Made by a program: the position numbers and the translations under genes. This document shows positions 8,486 to 58,550 of a stretch of DNA of 64,000 bases, piece after piece. Location: positions 1,656 to 65,655 of IMG/VR virus record IMGVR_UViG_3300030617_000007; one strand, written 5' to 3'. Source of the DNA: a virus. The notes under the pieces were generated by a model that ran no database searches, had not been told where the DNA came from, and was given only the letters and a program-made list of their open reading frames with translations. Each line of letters begins with the position of its first letter. Positions within the stretch are counted from its first letter, which is position 1.

Positions 8486-10126
8486 CTAAGACCCACAGCT
8501 TCCTCCGCCAGTCAGTGAGCAAATGTCCATCTGCTCCATGAATATTTCGTCCTTATGTTTCATAGCTGTCTTGTACGATACCACACTGAATGGTTGACCG
8601 GACCTGCACCCATCTGGATAACAAGTAAATCCTCTTAGCTTGGGAAGATATTTCATAAGCATATCTCCAAAACCTTTAACAAGGCTCTCGTTGTTGTACT
8701 CTGTGCCCCATGCCGGTAAATTTAGTGTAGAGCTAATACCGTGGTCTACCCATCTTTGTAGCCACACCTGGAAAGCCACACGTCGCTCTGGTGTCTGTGC
8801 CAGCGTGTAGGCGTCCTCAATAGAGGCAGGATTAACTCCAGCGTCTATCAGCCTTTTAGCTGTGGGGTCCAAAACGTACTGGTACACCCATTCTCCACCT
8901 TTAAGGTATCTTCGCTTGTAGGCAACACAGAATAGGGGCTCAAGTCCGCCAGTAGTTTCTGCTACAATAGCGATACTTCCTGTAGGGGCAATAGCTCTGG
9001 TCTTAATTGGTCTGGATATTCCAAGAGCATCGGCAGCGACGTTAGCAATGTCAGTAGATGTTTCGTACACATCTAGATAGGTTGCCAGTTCGTCACTAGG
9101 GCCATACGGTAGGCCTTTCTTAAGTAACCACTCGTGCAGGCCCATTAATCCAAGTCCTAGTCGTCTGTTACGAGACCTGACCTCTGCCACCTTAGCGTAA
9201 GGAATATCGCTGTAGACTGTCCCTGCTAGAAGGAACTCTGTTGCATATTTAGTGACATATGCCATTTCTTCTAGGCTTGTAATCTGCGCCATGTTAATTG
9301 AAGCCAAGTTGCAAATATCAGAATCATCGCGGCTGGTAATCTCTGTGCAGGCGTTGCGTAGGTCTTCGCCCTCGTTCTCGCCACAGTCAACAGAGAATCC
9401 AGGCTCGGCAGTCTCTAGCATGTGTCTAACGGTATCCCAGTAGACCCTCTGCGCTACCTCGTGCTTTGGATGATGCGTATTGTTGTACGCAATAAAGAAC
9501 TCTGTATCGAGACCTACTGATATGTTCGTACCGTCCATAGGAGCTGGAAAGTTAAAGTCTTGCGCCTTAAGTGCTTTGACTTCCGGCGACCAATCTTTCA
9601 TCTTGATGAACTTCAGTACATCGGGGTGAGACCATTTGAGTCCGGCCCAGATTGCGGAGCGGCGTGATCCGCCTTGCATAATACCGTTGCCACAACGATT
9701 GGTCATTTCCATAAGGGCCAAAGGTCCGGTAGCAAAGCCTCCTGTGCGTTTAATGATAGAGCCTTCTTCACGGACAAGGCTATACTCGATACCGATACCT
9801 GCTCCGGTCATAAGGGCCATGGCGCACTTCTGAAGGTGATCTGCCCATCCCTCGCGCGAGTCTTCCACGCGCATGAGAAGGCAATTCTGAACCTGATGGA
9901 AGTCTCTACCTGCGGCGTATAAATACCGACCACCTGGAAGGAACTTTCGTTCGTAGATAATTTTGGCTGTAATCTGAATAGTTTCTTCAGATGCTCCCAC
10001 AGCGGAGAGGACATTTCGTGCTACTCGATGGGCTATGTCGTACCATGTTTCTTTGTTGCCGTCTAATTTTATCTGAGCATACTTTTGGAGCATGATCGTT
10101 TCAGCGAATACACTCATTTGTTGCAA
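8486..10126 (-). CDS. nrdJ: Class II (adenosylcobalamin-dependent) ribonucleotide reductase
   Basis: FLPGGRYL, QNC, GGSRRSA, RNACTEI, RRLGLGLMG, AIAPTGS; no small-subunit gene in the window; start near 10126/10117 after AAGGAA. Confidence 0.85.
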   Translation of the reverse strand: MQQMSVFAETIMLQKYAQIKLDGNKETWYDIAHRVARNVLSAVGASEETIQITAKIIYERKFLPGGRYLYAAGRDFHQVQNCLLMRVEDSREGWADHLQKCAMALMTGAGIGIEYSLVREEGSIIKRTGGFATGPLALMEMTNRCGNGIMQGGSRRSAIWAGLKWSHPDVLKFIKMKDWSPEVKALKAQDFNFPAPMDGTNISVGLDTEFFIAYNNTHHPKHEVAQRVYWDTVRHMLETAEPGFSVDCGENEGEDLRNACTEITSRDDSDICNLASINMAQITSLEEMAYVTKYATEFLLAGTVYSDIPYAKVAEVRSRNRRLGLGLMGLHEWLLKKGLPYGPSDELATYLDVYETSTDIANVAADALGISRPIKTRAIAPTGSIAIVAETTGGLEPLFCVAYKRRYLKGGEWVYQYVLDPTAKRLIDAGVNPASIEDAYTLAQTPERRVAFQVWLQRWVDHGISSTLNLPAWGTEYNNESLVKGFGDMLMKYLPKLRGFTCYPDGCRSGQPFSVVSYKTAMKHKDEIFMEQMDICSLTGGGSCGS

Positions 10127-14786: not shown

Positions 14787-14815
14787 ATACTACACCATCA
14801 CAGGCTATTTGTCAA
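14787..14815 (-). promoter_or_regulatory. Sigma70-type promoter
   Basis: TTGACA-N17-TAGTAT. Confidence 0.7.
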
Positions 14816-15161
14816 GTGTCAATTCAACTACTTCAACTACTGTTGACTTGGGCTTGGCCGGTTGCCGTTTACGGGGTGTCTTACGGGGGGCACGCGATCT
14901 TGCAGGTTCCATCACATCGTACTGCGGACGGTATTGCGAGTAGCGTACATCGTTACGGAGTTCTTTGATTTGCTCGACTAACTGCGTGGTCTGCCCTTGC
15001 AGGTCGCCGCGCAAGGATGTGATGCCAACGTGAATCTCTTTGAGGTCTTTCTCTCGGATGTCTTTGACCCAATTGAATCCCTTGAAGATTGCCCACAGGA
15101 ATGATAGGAGTGCCAGCCAGAATTTTGACTGTTCGTATATGACTTCAGGTGAGAGCATCAT
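14805..15161 (-). CDS. Single-TM coiled-coil protein (lysis accessory/holin-like)
   Basis: FWLALLSFLWAIF followed by a coiled coil and basic tail. Confidence 0.45.
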   Translation of the reverse strand: MMLSPEVIYEQSKFWLALLSFLWAIFKGFNWVKDIREKDLKEIHVGITSLRGDLQGQTTQLVEQIKELRNDVRYSQYRPQYDVMEPARSRAPRKTPRKRQPAKPKSTVVEVVELTLDK

Positions 15162-56909: not shown

Positions 56910-57221
56910 ATGGCATTCGAGAAAGTAGACAGGACGTTTTGGCAGGGAACACTATTCAACTACCAAGACTTAGGACCGGCAATCAAAGGCGGGAAGACCC
57001 ACAAATTTAGGGTTATATCCCGCAAGCGCAGAGATGTGGGTACCCATGTTGGTTATATTCGATGGGCCAACCCTTCAAACTGCATGTCCTTCTACCCGCT
57101 CGTGCCTATGCTTTCACCGACCGATATGGAAGAGCTAGCAGCATTCTCAAAAGAGCGTACCGATACGCATCTGGCAACCACGGACTACGGGGCGGGAAGA
57201 CCGCCAGGGAGAAAGAAGTAA
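56910..57221 (+). CDS. Hypothetical protein
   Basis: ATG at 56910 downstream of the promoter. Confidence 0.5.
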   Translation: MAFEKVDRTFWQGTLFNYQDLGPAIKGGKTHKFRVISRKRRDVGTHVGYIRWANPSNCMSFYPLVPMLSPTDMEELAAFSKERTDTHLATTDYGAGRPPGRKK

Positions 57222-57284
57222 TGGGAATAGGATTGATCCTGCTCTTTGGTCTTGCACTGTATTTAAAAAAGCGCAAGAAAGACC

Positions 57285-57314
57285 TTGACACACCAACCAG
57301 ACTTGAAGTAAGGT
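57285..57314 (+). promoter_or_regulatory. Probable promoter of the tmRNA gene
   Basis: TTGACA-N18-TAAGGT immediately upstream of the acceptor piece. Confidence 0.55.
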
Positions 57315-57319
57315 ATACA

Positions 57320-57690
57320 GAAGACATCTCGGACAAAACACTCGTCCGGTAACACACGTAGAAGGTTGCTTGTTATTGTCGGCGGACGCGAGGGCAGAAC
57401 TCGCCACCTCCACCATAAATTGATCTTGATTCGATTATGGGGGTGACTCAGTTTCGACGGCGGCTGATAGTGGGTACAACTTGCGTGTCGGGAATTTGTT
57501 AGCTTCGCCCGTAAAAAGAAACTCGCAAAAAGAAATGTCACGAACAATGACGAAATGGCTTCGATCCGCAACATGGTGATGTTCCCCTCGGCTTCGGCTG
57601 GGCACGACATCGACACCAAGGTGCGAGTAGCCGATCTGGTTGCAGCCTAAGCTGCTAAGGTAGTCCCTGCCTCACAGGGACACACATTGA
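57320..57690 (+). ncRNA. ssrA: Circularly permuted (two-piece) tmRNA: acceptor piece ~57320-57415, 23-nt intervening segment, coding piece from 57439 (3' end uncertain, possibly up to 57894)
   Basis: GGACGCGAG-GGCAGAA-CTCGC-CACCTCC-A-CCA precedes GGGGGTGACTCAGTTTCGAC; 7-bp acceptor stem with G3-U70; tag frame ends VAA*. Confidence 0.88.
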
Positions 57691-57929
57691 AGTCTAGACC
57701 CGCCTCCTAAAAAGAGCAATCTCCGGTGCCATCGTGCTCGGAAGTAATGGCGCACTCCATCCCTAAGCTGAGACCCAGTAAGGGCGCTGAGAAGGTGTGC
57801 GGCGGTAGTCGGGCATTTGCAGCAATGGGAACGGCTGGCCAGTTAGTTCGGGGCACCCAAGGGGCGGGTTCAGGCGGGTTTCGCCGCTCCACCAAATTGA
57901 AACAAATACGTAACAAGAATCGAGAAACT

Positions 57930-58550
57930 ATGACACCGAACATTCATTTCACCAGCGACGAACATTTCGGACATCGAAACGTAATGCTCGGCTTTCTAGA
58001 TCACAAGACCGGTCTACCAACCTCAAAGCCTCGTCCCTGGGGGACTCTCGAAGAGATGACTGAGGGAATGATCGACCGGCACAATTATGTCGTCAAGTCC
58101 GGTGACCTCGTGTACCATTTGGGAGACGCTTTTTGGAGAACTTTTGGCGTCGACAATGCAATTGAAGTCATGCAACGTCTAAACGGGAACCACTACTACA
58201 TCTTCGGCAACCATGAAGAGTTGTTTGAAGAGGCTGGGCGTTCGGTGACTCTCAAGCATCAGTTTGTGTGGTTGAAGGATCGTGCGAAGCTAAAGGTTCA
58301 GCTCGATCCTACGAAGTCCAAGAAGCAGATGATCGTGCTCGATCACTTTGCCGGGCGTGTGTGGGATAAGTCTCATAGCGGATCGTGGCAGTTATATGGC
58401 CACAGTCACGGCGCTCTACCTGAGCAGGACGACCTCCTGTCGTTCGACGTAGGAGTCGATGCAAACAACTGGTATCCGGTATCCATCGAAGAGGTGGCGC
58501 AGCGGATGTCTCTCAAGGGAAAGCCGAATCGTTTCGGCCAACACGGATAA
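57930..58550 (+). CDS. Calcineurin-like metallophosphoesterase
   Basis: FTSDEHFGH, YHLGD, GNHE, LYGHSHG, FDVGVD; real start is ATG 57930. Confidence 0.9.
   Translation: MTPNIHFTSDEHFGHRNVMLGFLDHKTGLPTSKPRPWGTLEEMTEGMIDRHNYVVKSGDLVYHLGDAFWRTFGVDNAIEVMQRLNGNHYYIFGNHEELFEEAGRSVTLKHQFVWLKDRAKLKVQLDPTKSKKQMIVLDHFAGRVWDKSHSGSWQLYGHSHGALPEQDDLLSFDVGVDANNWYPVSIEEVAQRMSLKGKPNRFGQHG

What the first reader, a model, noticed from the sequence alone, without database searches (positions are those of the whole stretch)
57320..57690. Phage-encoded circularly permuted (two-piece) tmRNA
Seen: the tmRNA 3' half (helix-2 strand ACACGTAGAAGG, T-arm GCGAG-GGCAGAA-CTCGC, CACCTCC-A-CCA ending 57415) lies upstream of the 5' half (GGGGGTGACTCAGTTTCGAC from 57439). 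They are separated by 23 nt and preceded by a TTGACA promoter. The halves form a perfect 7-bp Ala acceptor stem with G3-U70, and GCGTGT(57483)/ACACGT(57354) helix 2. Established: permuted tmRNAs are known mainly from Alphaproteobacteria, some cyanobacteria and some betaproteobacteria, and the alphaproteobacterial form has a GGCRGUA-type T-loop like the GGCAGAA here. Inference: a phage-borne permuted ssrA, either captured or an independent permutation, that may redirect host trans-translation.
Basis: partly seen in the sequence, partly recalled or inferred. Interest (0 to 1): 0.85.

Follow-up and report, generated by a model that had tools for sequence, protein, structure and literature searches.

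The report
Two-piece tmRNA gene in soil phage
This peat-soil phage carries a genuine back-to-front ("two-piece") copy of tmRNA, the RNA that rescues stalled ribosomes; such genes are already known in phages, but this one belongs to an undescribed lineage shared with a cultured Acidobacteria phage and encodes an unusually long, conserved peptide tag.

Summary
The exception is the promoter: only the TTGACA hexamer is there.

The window comes from an 86-kb IMG/VR phage record found in peat. Its nearest cultured relative is Tunturiibacter phage Tunturi_3, which infects Acidobacteriota. That phylum uses one-piece tmRNA.

I found homologous permuted tmRNAs in Tunturi_3, where the gene is unannotated and absent from its paper, and in eight uncultured relatives. 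Compensatory changes support the acceptor stem, T stem, the helix joining the two pieces, pseudoknot 1 and the 3' hairpin. The 36-41-codon tag (most likely 37) ends in LVAA. Synonymous changes and an in-frame indel show it is conserved as a peptide.

The lineage falls below the cut-offs of the beta and cyano models. The alpha model matches only this phage's tRNA-like domain, and no relative shares that alpha-type T arm. It looks like a swapped-in module.

Phage two-piece tmRNAs are already published (Melnitz, 2022), and this scan has noted them 421 times. This is therefore a new member of a known kind, of moderate interest. No experiment bears on processing or function.

The parts
57285..57290 (+). 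It is not supported as one.
   Evidence: The hexamer is present. The consensus scan lists no promoter here. The -10 candidate TAAGGT (57309-57314) matches 3 of 6. The site lies inside ORF 57221-57352 and is not conserved upstream of the homologues.
57354..57415 (+). Acceptor piece, the 3' half of the tmRNA. It holds the 5' strand of the closing helix ACACGT (57354-57359), GGAC (57384-57387), the T arm (57388-57404), the 3' acceptor strand (57405-57411), discriminator A57412 and an encoded CCA (57413-57415).
   Evidence: RF04321 alignment. Covariation table of acceptor and T stems in 5 homologues. The closing helix starts 33-34 nt before the T arm in 7 homologues, with compensatory changes.
57416..57438 (+). 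Intervening sequence of 23 nt that would be removed on processing. It can form a 6-bp hairpin, AATTGA (57418-57423) with TCGATT (57431-57436).
   Evidence: (MFE fold). In homologues the spacer is 23-130 nt and unrelated in sequence (26% identity to L243).
57439..57488 (+). 5' end of the coding piece: 5' acceptor strand GGGGGTG (57439-57445), D-loop analogue ACTCAGTTTCGAC (57446-57458), 3' strands of helix 2 including CAACTT and GCGTGT (57477-57488).
   Evidence: CAACTTGCGTGT is identical in Tunturi_3, and the shorter AACTTGCGTGT is shared with L243 and L244.
57489..57523 (+). Pseudoknot 1. Stem 1 is CGGG (57489-57492) with CCCG (57508-57511). Stem 2 is AGCTTC (57501-57506) with GAAACT (57518-57523), with one C-A mismatch.
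   Evidence: Read from the alignment. Stem 1 is CGAGT/ACTCG in L243, CGTGG/CCACG in L244 and TGTG/TACA in Tunturi_3. Stem 2 is GGCTCT/AGGAAC(C) in L243 and AGCTCT/AGAACT in L244. Changes are compensatory at three pairs and the mismatch sits at the same place.
57537..57650 (+). Tag reading frame. The likely resume codon is GTC at 57537 (alternatives in the same frame are ACG at 57540 and GCA at 57525). It runs 37 codons, VTNNDEMASIRNMVMFPSASAGHDIDTKVRVADLVAA, to the stop TAA at 57648-57650.
   Evidence: L243 has the same length, with its first 21 codons differing at 1 of 63 nt. Against L244 there are 8 synonymous and 15 replacement codons plus one in-frame codon indel. The GTC context AGAAAT|GTC matches Tunturi_3's AGAATC|GTC, and the spacing after pseudoknot 1 is 13 versus 12 nt.
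57663..57681 (+). 3'-terminal hairpin of the coding piece: GTCCCTG, loop CCTCA, CAGGGAC.
   Evidence: Recovered in the MFE folds. It is GCCCCTC/GAGGGGC in L243 and GCCCCTG/CAGGGGC in L244, two compensatory pairs. A peat RNA-library contig matches only from 57691 onward, with unlike sequence upstream. That fits a module boundary near 57690.

Best explanation
This is a functional, phage-encoded two-piece tmRNA gene.

**Shown.** The gene order is: 3' tRNA-like half, 23-nt spacer, 5' tRNA-like half, helix 2, pseudoknot 1, tag frame, terminal hairpin. Each paired element is kept by compensatory change across a clade of Tunturi_3-like phages. The tag is conserved as a peptide.

**Inferred from how known two-piece tmRNAs work.**
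- The gene is transcribed as one precursor, probably together with the upstream genes.
- Host RNase P cuts before G57439 and host 3' trimming stops at CCA57415, so the spacer is lost.
- The two RNAs stay joined by the 7-bp acceptor stem and helix 2.
- Host alanyl-tRNA synthetase charges the RNA through G3-U70 and A73.
- Host SmpB and EF-Tu deliver it to ribosomes stalled on broken mRNAs. The phage encodes no SmpB.
- Translation resumes at about GTC 57537 and adds roughly 38 residues ending in LVAA, a ClpXP-type degradation signal.

**Likely benefit to the phage (inferred).** It keeps ribosomes free while host or defence nucleases cut mRNAs during infection. The gene sits among tRNA genes and RNA-repair-type genes.

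**A further inference.** The alpha-type T arm of this phage was probably acquired by recombination onto a backbone that is not alpha-type.
For: - Rfam RF04321 scores 67.4 bits.
- Homologues pass the same model: Tunturi_3 63.3; L216 73.2, L229 65.1, L221 56.0; L241 92.8 and L242 83.4.
- Covariation: acceptor pairs 4 and 5 and T-stem pairs 1-4, with G3-U70, A73 and CCA invariant; the closing helix; pseudoknot 1 and the 3' hairpin.
- The tag is selected as a peptide.
- A soil RNA-library contig covers 57355-57504 and carries the compensatory T-stem pair change A57391G plus T57401C.
- No SmpB or RF-1 domain is found in the phage record.
- The context is a phage: terminase, DNA polymerase A, metallophosphoesterase and an RlaP-type nucleotidyltransferase.
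- For the mosaic: over 52 fixed positions this tRNA-like domain is 83-90% identical to alpha-type domains but 58-73% identical to clade relatives. The T arm is 41% identical to L243 while the spacer and the first 21 tag codons are 98-100% identical. The alpha model scores 57.9 bits here and at most 20 bits in relatives.
Against: - There is no experimental evidence for processing, charging or tagging.
- The one RNA-library contig spans both pieces, so it shows a precursor or contaminating DNA, not mature ends.
- The whole-gene fold is no more stable than shuffled sequence (z = -0.75). Unconstrained co-folding recovers the acceptor stem, T arm and 3' hairpin but not helix 2.
- T loops vary widely in the clade: UUCGAxx, UAUCGUAU, CUGCGAUG and GGCAGAA. 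That could mean relaxed constraint on the elbow that SmpB contacts, and it weakens the argument that the alpha-like loop must be imported.
- The host is inferred only from a relative with about 50% protein identity and from the peat habitat.
- One complete relative (G008) lacks the gene.
Confidence: 0.78

Rival explanations
1. Decoy rather than rescuer. The RNA mainly soaks up host SmpB or AlaRS, or blocks host trans-translation. A tRNA-like-domain-only tmRNA resembling that of mycobacteriophage DS6A does this when expressed in E. coli. On this reading the tag frame is not used.
For: The phage has no SmpB. T loops are non-canonical and variable. Published precedent is quoted in PMC4131195 and PMC11915505.
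Against: Pseudoknot 1, the resume context, the stop codon and the hydrophobic, alanine-rich C-terminus are kept across the clade. The tag shows synonymous changes and an in-frame indel. That is not expected if the frame were never translated.
Confidence: 0.1
2. It works as a tmRNA, but the long conserved tag does something other than mark proteins for breakdown. The conserved interior TNNDxxAxIRNMxMFP could recruit a phage or host factor, or redirect tagged proteins.
For: The tag is 36-41 codons against the usual 10 (PMC11915505). The interior is conserved more strongly than the segment before the C-terminus. A KVRVA motif is shared with Tunturi_3.
Against: The C-terminus LVAA / MLAA / GVAA is the classical degradation-signal type. 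Tags of 30-33 residues occur in ordinary alphaproteobacterial tmRNAs. Other clade members have tags of 11-14 residues.
Confidence: 0.2
3. One-piece tmRNA. The 5' half at 57439 pairs with the downstream ...CCGCTCC-ACCA end at 57884-57894, and the upstream half is a leftover.
For: A second ACCA end lies 244 nt after the tag stop, inside a 279-nt non-coding stretch. The phosphoesterase gene really starts at ATG 57930.
Against: The standard tmRNA model finds nothing on 57436-57960. Only 5 of 7 acceptor pairs would form with GGGGGTG, and there is no T arm before that end. That end pairs perfectly with its own nearby GGGGCGG. In relatives the coding piece ends at the hairpin just after the stop; in L229 a T-run follows and in L221 the next gene follows.
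Confidence: 0.02
4. The region is a host-derived ssrA fragment or an attachment site left by integration into a host tmRNA gene, not a working phage gene.
For: The phage record encodes a tyrosine integrase, outside the window. Many IMG/VR hits to alpha-type tmRNA 3' ends sit at contig ends, as prophage borders would.
Against: Both halves are complete and lie inside the genome, in the same place relative to the DNA polymerase and phosphoesterase genes as in Tunturi_3, L216, L221 and L229. Covariation and tag conservation show selection. The presumed host phylum has one-piece tmRNA: 1589 standard and 0 alpha-permuted in 2144 Acidobacteriota genomes.
Confidence: 0.02

Closest known systems
Two-piece ssrA of marine phage Melnitz and pelagimyophages (Buchholz et al. 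2022, PMC9004378)
   Same: A phage-encoded, circularly permuted tmRNA with a complete tRNA-like domain and tag frame. The phage encodes no SmpB. The tmRNA type differs from that of the host or presumed host.
   Different: Melnitz's gene is a regular alpha-type tmRNA from a T4-like marine myophage, found by ARAGORN and preceded by a glutamine riboswitch. This gene comes from a peat-soil phage related to a podovirus. ARAGORN misses it, it fits the alpha model only in the tRNA-like domain, and it has a tag of about 37 codons.
Alphaproteobacterial two-piece tmRNA (Rfam RF01849; Keiler, Shapiro and Williams 2000, as cited in PMC9004378)
   Same: Same gene order, a GGCRGNA-type T loop, a GGGGGYG acceptor stem, an encoded CCA and a short spacer. 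The tRNA-like domain is 83-87% identical to those of alphaproteobacterial genomes.
   Different: The match covers only model positions 87-168 of 355. The helix 2 sequences, pseudoknot 1 and resume region are unlike alpha. The 3' hairpin lacks the ACCNGGCAACAGAA loop, which four clade relatives do have.
Betaproteobacterial two-piece tmRNA (Rfam RF01850; Sharkady and Williams 2004, as cited in PMC9004378) and standard one-piece tmRNA (RF00023)
   Same: Clade relatives align full-length to the beta model (35-46 bits). L216 aligns in two halves to the standard model (43.8 and 31.8 bits). The GCAYGTAG-like motif of the helix 2 strand and the ...GTAAAAAG...CGCAAAAAGAAAT resume context resemble standard tmRNAs (the E. 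coli comparison is from my own memory).
   Different: All scores are below cut-off (84 for beta, 47 for standard). The window itself scores 25.5 on beta and nothing on the standard model. There are no pseudoknots 2-4.
Unannotated homologue in Tunturiibacter phage Tunturi_3 (PP885686; host Tunturiibacter psychrotolerans, Acidobacteriota; PMC11924767)
   Same: It occupies the same genomic position, after the DNA polymerase and before the phosphoesterase. It shares the identical 5' strand AACACACGTAGAAGGTTG and 3' strand CAACTTGCGTGT, the GTC resume context and a KVRVA...LAA tag motif. RF04321 scores 63.3 bits.
   Different: It has a canonical T loop (UUCGACC), a different acceptor stem (GGGCTTG/CAAGTCC), a 29-codon tag, an alpha-style AACAGAA loop in the 3' hairpin, and tRNA genes directly after it. 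It is not annotated in the record and its paper does not mention tmRNA.
Mycobacteriophage tmRNAs (Bxz1 group) and the DS6A tRNA-like-domain-only form (PMC4131195)
   Same: Phage-borne tmRNA genes without a phage SmpB.
   Different: Those are one-piece genes, or in DS6A lack a tag frame. This one is permuted and keeps a long tag frame.

Membership tests
Permuted (two-piece) tmRNA, Rfam RF04321 | Covariance-model score at or above the curated cut-off | tested here: met
   67.4 bits against a cut-off of 47, full model 1-213, at 57354-57650.
Permuted (two-piece) tmRNA, Rfam RF04321 | The 3' tRNA-like half lies upstream of the 5' half, separated by a short removable spacer | tested here: met
   CCA ends at 57415, G1 is at 57439 and the spacer is 23 nt.
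Permuted (two-piece) tmRNA, Rfam RF04321 | Alanine identity: a 7-bp acceptor stem with G3-U70 and discriminator A73 | tested here: met
   GGGGGTG with CACCTCC, then A, then CCA. G3-U70 and A73 are invariant, and pairs 4 and 5 covary in 5 homologues.
Permuted (two-piece) tmRNA, Rfam RF04321 | Helix 2 joins the two pieces | tested here: met
   The 6-bp closing helix sits at a fixed distance in 7 homologues, with compensatory changes at positions 1, 2, 3 and 6. The inner part of helix 2 is less clear, and thermodynamic co-folding does not recover it.
Permuted (two-piece) tmRNA, Rfam RF04321 | Pseudoknot 1 upstream of a tag reading frame that ends in a hydrophobic, alanine-rich C-terminus and a stop codon | tested here: met
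   Both pseudoknot stems covary among the window, L243 and L244. The tag ends LVAA then TAA. The frame is conserved as a peptide.
Permuted (two-piece) tmRNA, Rfam RF04321 | The precursor is cut into two RNAs that act with SmpB in trans-translation | not testable with these tools
   Only assembled contigs from RNA libraries were available. One spans 57355-57504, across both pieces, and cannot show mature ends. The phage has no SmpB.
Alphaproteobacterial tmRNA, Rfam RF01849 | Full-length match including the alpha-specific helix 2 region, the mRNA-like region and the 3' hairpin | tested here: not met
   Only model positions 87-168 of 355 match (57.9 bits). The 3' hairpin loop is CCTCA, not ACCNGGCAACAGAA.
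Alphaproteobacterial tmRNA, Rfam RF01849 | GGCRGNA-type T loop | tested here: met
   GGCAGAA. The combined signature searched in one genome per species (this T loop, a CNCCTCCACCA 3' end, then GGGGGNGA 10-40 nt downstream) matched 25 stretches. 24 are alphaproteobacterial tmRNA genes and one is a chance match in GC-rich coding DNA. No other member of this phage clade has this loop.
Betaproteobacterial (RF01850) and cyanobacterial (RF01851) two-piece tmRNA | Covariance-model score at or above the cut-off | tested here: not met
   Beta scores 25.5 bits against 84. Cyano gives no match at E <= 1.
Standard one-piece tmRNA, Rfam RF00023 | The 5' half, tag, pseudoknots and 3' tRNA-like half lie in that order on one RNA | tested here: not met
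   No RF00023 match on 57436-57960 at E <= 10. The downstream ACCA end has no T arm and pairs with GGGGGTG at only 5 of 7 positions.

The most novel reading that the evidence does not exclude
In a permuted tmRNA gene the whole tRNA-like domain is one contiguous stretch of about 100 nt. This phage may show that stretch being exchanged as a cassette between unrelated tmRNA lineages: an alpha-type T arm on a backbone typical of Acidobacteria phages. The mRNA-like half, meanwhile, carries a 37-residue tag whose conserved interior gives rescued proteins a phage-specific fate beyond simple degradation. Because the cultured phage Tunturi_3 has the homologous gene, both ideas could be tested at the bench.
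Probability: 0.4. Interest if true: 0.55.

Novelty: new member of a known kind. Interest (0 to 1): 0.4.

Why it matters
Phage tmRNAs are known, but no function has been shown for any two-piece one.

This work links an uncultured peat phage to a cultured phage-host pair, Tunturi_3 on Tunturiibacter psychrotolerans. In that phage the same gene sits unannotated, and the host phylum uses a one-piece tmRNA. That gives a tractable system for three questions:
- Is a phage two-piece tmRNA processed and charged in the host?
- Does it work with a host SmpB that evolved alongside a different tmRNA form?
- What does a long, conserved tag do?

The work also shows that ARAGORN misses this lineage, so soil-phage annotations that rely on it under-report tmRNA. 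Finally, the tRNA-like and mRNA-like halves of the gene have different histories.

Tried and rejected
- **ARAGORN** on the window and on Tunturi_3 found no tmRNA.
- **blastn of the region against cultured phages** gave no match.
- **Peptide-pattern search with the window's DNA polymerase alone** found no relatives. An alignment with the Tunturi polymerases was needed.
- **Three DNA-pattern scans** returned only alpha-type tmRNAs unrelated outside the tRNA-like domain. They show that alpha-type permuted tmRNAs are common in viral contigs, with at least 119 hits.
- **The 16-mer CACACGTAGAAGGTTG** hit two viral contigs that carry no tmRNA, so these are chance matches.
- **One-piece reading using the downstream ACCA end:** rejected.
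- **Promoter at TTGACA:** not supported.
- **Resume codon GCA at 57525 (41-codon tag):** unlikely. It lies 1 nt after stem 2 of pseudoknot 1, whereas Tunturi_3 has 12 nt between that stem and its GTC.
- **CTCCACCA repeated at 57408 and 57887:** not significant alone, because the 8-mer occurs 10 times in the window against 2 expected.
- **Relatives of a virus record** cannot be drawn by the genome search. I therefore could not fetch an Acidobacteriota tmRNA to test descent from the host's one-piece gene.
- **Thermodynamic folding** neither supports nor refutes helix 2.

Full report
**What is there.** The window is part of an 85,920-bp IMG/VR virus record, estimated about 90% complete. It encodes a large terminase, a family A DNA polymerase with a 3'-5' exonuclease domain, a metallophosphoesterase and an RlaP-type nucleotidyltransferase.

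Rfam's general permuted-tmRNA model (RF04321) matches 57354-57650 on the + strand at 67.4 bits, against a cut-off of 47. The alpha-lineage model (RF01849) reaches 57.9 bits, but only over 57383-57459, which is the tRNA-like domain. ARAGORN reports only two tRNA genes and no tmRNA.

Reading the sequence gives these parts:
- T arm GCGAG/GGCAGAA/CTCGC at 57388-57404.
- 3' acceptor strand CACCTCC, then A, then CCA, ending at 57415.
- A 23-nt spacer that can form a small hairpin.
- 5' strand GGGGGTG from 57439, giving seven pairs with G3-U70.
- ACACGT (57354) pairing with GCGTGT (57483).

The exception is the promoter. TTGACA is present at 57285, but it has a poor -10, it lies inside a 43-codon ORF, the scan tool does not call it, and it is not conserved upstream of the homologues.

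**Relatives.** No close DNA relative exists among cultured phages. By protein, however, the nearest cultured phage is Tunturiibacter phage Tunturi_3: terminase 55% identical, DNA polymerase 49-53%. Tunturi_3 is a 97.6-kb podovirus of an Acidobacteriota host from tundra soil (PMC11924767).

In Tunturi_3, between the DNA polymerase and the phosphoesterase genes, RF04321 finds a permuted tmRNA at 63.3 bits. It is not annotated in the record, and its paper never mentions tmRNA. It shares the window's 5' strand AACACACGTAGAAGGTTG and the 3' strand CAACTTGCGTGT exactly.

An alignment of the three polymerases retrieved 26 uncultured relatives. A structure-descriptor script found permuted tRNA-like domains at the same genomic position in L216 (L218 is identical to it), L221 and L229. 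All were confirmed by RF04321 at 73.2, 56.0 and 65.1 bits. Two further complete relatives carry the gene elsewhere in the genome (L241 at 92.8 bits, L242 at 83.4). One complete relative lacks it.

Two closer relatives came from contigs encoding the neighbouring phosphoesterase: L243 (77% identical) and L244 (74%).

The window's DNA is held by 23 peat metagenome runs. Peat fits an Acidobacteriota host but does not prove one.

**Evidence that the RNA is functional.**
- Across five homologues, acceptor pairs 4 and 5 and T-stem pairs 1-4 change in a compensatory way. G3-U70, A73 and the encoded CCA never change.
- The closing helix of helix 2 starts 33-34 nt before the T arm in seven homologues. 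It keeps six pairs through changes at positions 1, 2, 3 and 6.
- Among the window, L243 and L244, both stems of pseudoknot 1 and the 3' hairpin covary.
- The tag frame ends at TAA 57648-57650. L243 has a tag of the same length. Its first 21 codons differ from the window's at one synonymous base. L244 differs by 8 synonymous and 15 replacement codons and one in-frame codon deletion. This is the pattern of a translated, selected peptide.

The resume codon is most likely GTC at 57537. This rests on the shared AGAAAT|GTC context with Tunturi_3 and on the 12-13-nt spacing after pseudoknot 1. ACG (57540) and GCA (57525) lie in the same frame, so the tag is 36-41 codons long. Its sequence from GTC is VTNNDEMASIRNMVMFPSASAGHDIDTKVRVADLVAA.

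Other clade members have tags of about 11 to 37 codons. Alphaproteobacterial genomes in my sample reach 30-33. The length is therefore at the upper end but not unique.

The coding piece appears to stop at the hairpin 57663-57681, and there are no pseudoknots 2-4. In relatives the same hairpin is followed by a T-run (L229) or by the next gene (L221). A peat RNA-library contig matches the window only from 57691 onward.

**RNA evidence.** This is thin. A soil metatranscriptome contig covers 57355-57504. It carries A57391G together with T57401C, a compensatory change in the T stem. Because it spans both pieces, it shows at most a precursor, or contaminating DNA, from a close variant.

**Which lineage?** The scores, in bits, are:

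| Sequence | alpha (RF01849) | beta (RF01850) | cyano (RF01851) |
|---|---|---|---|
| Window | 57.9, tRNA-like domain only | 25.5 | no match |
| Relatives | at most 20, or no match | 35-46, some full-length | 28-35 |
| Model cut-off | 50 | 84 | 70 |

L216 also aligns in two halves to the standard one-piece model, below its cut-off. Four relatives have the alpha-style ACCNGNAACAGAA loop in the 3' hairpin, whereas the window, L243, L244 and L241 do not. The lineage therefore fits none of the three described permuted groups cleanly.

Acidobacteriota genomes carry 1589 standard, 0 alpha-permuted and 5 beta-labelled permuted tmRNAs (Table S2 of PMC11915505). Those five could be phage contigs of this kind binned into bacterial genome bins. 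I could not check that. Whether the lineage was captured from a beta- or alpha-type gene, or arose by its own permutation of a one-piece gene, stays open.

**The alpha-like T arm.** T loops in the clade are:
- UUCGAxx in five distinct members;
- UAUCGUAU in L243 and L244;
- CUGCGAUG in L242;
- GGCAGAA in the window only.

Over 52 fixed positions, the window's tRNA-like domain is 83-90% identical to alpha-type domains from phage contigs and alphaproteobacterial genomes. It is 58-73% identical to its own clade. One alpha-type viral contig (L095) matches 30 of the 32 bases from GGAC to CCA, including the T stem.

Against L243, identity by segment is:
- T arm: 41%.
- Spacer between the two pieces (the intervening sequence): 26%.
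- D-loop analogue and inner helix 2: 35%.
- Both acceptor strands: 100%.
- Spacer before the tag: 100%.
- First 21 tag codons: 98%.

The gene is clearly a mosaic. I rate import of the T arm from an alpha-type tmRNA at about 60-65%. The alternative is free drift of a poorly constrained loop. Members with a canonical T loop keep GG in the D-loop analogue. The window and L242, which have odd loops, have AG there. L243 and L244 break the pattern: they have an odd 8-nt loop but keep GG. So the link between loop type and D-loop analogue is only partial.

**Mechanism.** The mechanism is inferred from established two-piece tmRNA biology, as summarised in PMC9004378 and PMC11915505.
1. The gene is transcribed as one precursor.
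2. RNase P cuts at G57439, and 3' trimming stops at CCA57415.
3. The two RNAs are held together by the acceptor stem and helix 2.
4. Host AlaRS charges the RNA.
5. Host SmpB delivers it to stalled ribosomes. The phage record has no SmpB and no RF-1-domain rescue factor.
6. Translation resumes and adds a tag ending in LVAA.

The plausible benefit to the phage is keeping ribosomes available while mRNAs are being cut. The gene sits between tRNA genes, a metallophosphoesterase and an RNA-repair-type nucleotidyltransferase.

**Novelty.** Two-piece tmRNAs in phages are published. Buchholz et al. 2022 found 53 two-piece structures among 18,146 phage genomes, mostly marine. The 2025 tmRNA database lists 79 phage sequences. 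This scan has 421 earlier notes on the theme, including separate phage families in Bacteroidota.

This is therefore a new member of a known kind. What is worth noting:
- It belongs to a soil-phage lineage that has not been described, as far as I found.
- A cultured member exists.
- ARAGORN misses it.
- The T arm is mosaic.
- The long tag is conserved.

Noticed in passing
window 57861-57894 (also L244:445-478 and L243:3066-3093, approximate): A second alanine-type acceptor hairpin: GGGGCGG pairs with CCGCTCC (G3-U70), followed by ACCA and the same AAATTGA trailer that follows the tmRNA's own CCA. It is conserved in L244 with an identical stem and a different loop, and in L243 as GGGCGG/CCGTCC. 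It has no T arm, and Rfam and ARAGORN find no tRNA there. It lies in a 279-nt non-coding stretch before the phosphoesterase gene, whose real start is ATG 57930.
   Followed up: partly
window 57691-57774: A 156-nt contig from a peat metatranscriptome matches these 84 bases exactly, but its preceding 67 bases are unlike the window. The stretch after the tmRNA therefore occurs in another sequence context elsewhere.
   Followed up: no
L094, L004, L018, L081 (IMG/VR contigs): Alpha-type permuted tmRNAs with a GGCAGAA T loop and an intervening sequence of about 200 nt between the CCA and the 5' half. Other viral contigs have spacers of 127-264 nt. These are long enough to hold a small gene.
   Followed up: no
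L211 (Tunturi_3) 9558-9615, 9785-9859 and 14802-15140: After its tmRNA, Tunturi_3 has a partial tRNA-like match (34.8 bits) and a tRNA that ARAGORN reads with a 4-base anticodon (gaaa). About 5 kb further on is a gene annotated as an RF-1-domain release factor, which could be an ArfB-like ribosome rescue factor. The window's phage has no RF-1 domain.
   Followed up: no
window 57221-57352: A 43-codon ORF overlaps the stop of the upstream gene (TAATG) and encodes a hydrophobic helix followed by KKRKK. It ends 2 nt before the tmRNA. A 5-bp hairpin (57330-57334 with 57344-57348) precedes the tmRNA's 5' end, and hairpins sit at the same place in Tunturi_3 and L243.
   Followed up: no
G000:C1:2733-3209 (outside the window): The phage record encodes a tyrosine integrase (66.6 bits), so the phage may be temperate.
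   Followed up: no
window, whole: The 8-mer CTCCACCA occurs 10 times against 2 expected from shuffles. Most copies lie in structural genes far from the tmRNA.
   Followed up: no
L204 (Spirochaetia genome bin): This is the only non-alphaproteobacterial hit to the GGCAGAA...CCACCA...GGGGG pattern. It lies in GC-rich coding-looking DNA and is a chance match, not a tmRNA.
   Followed up: partly
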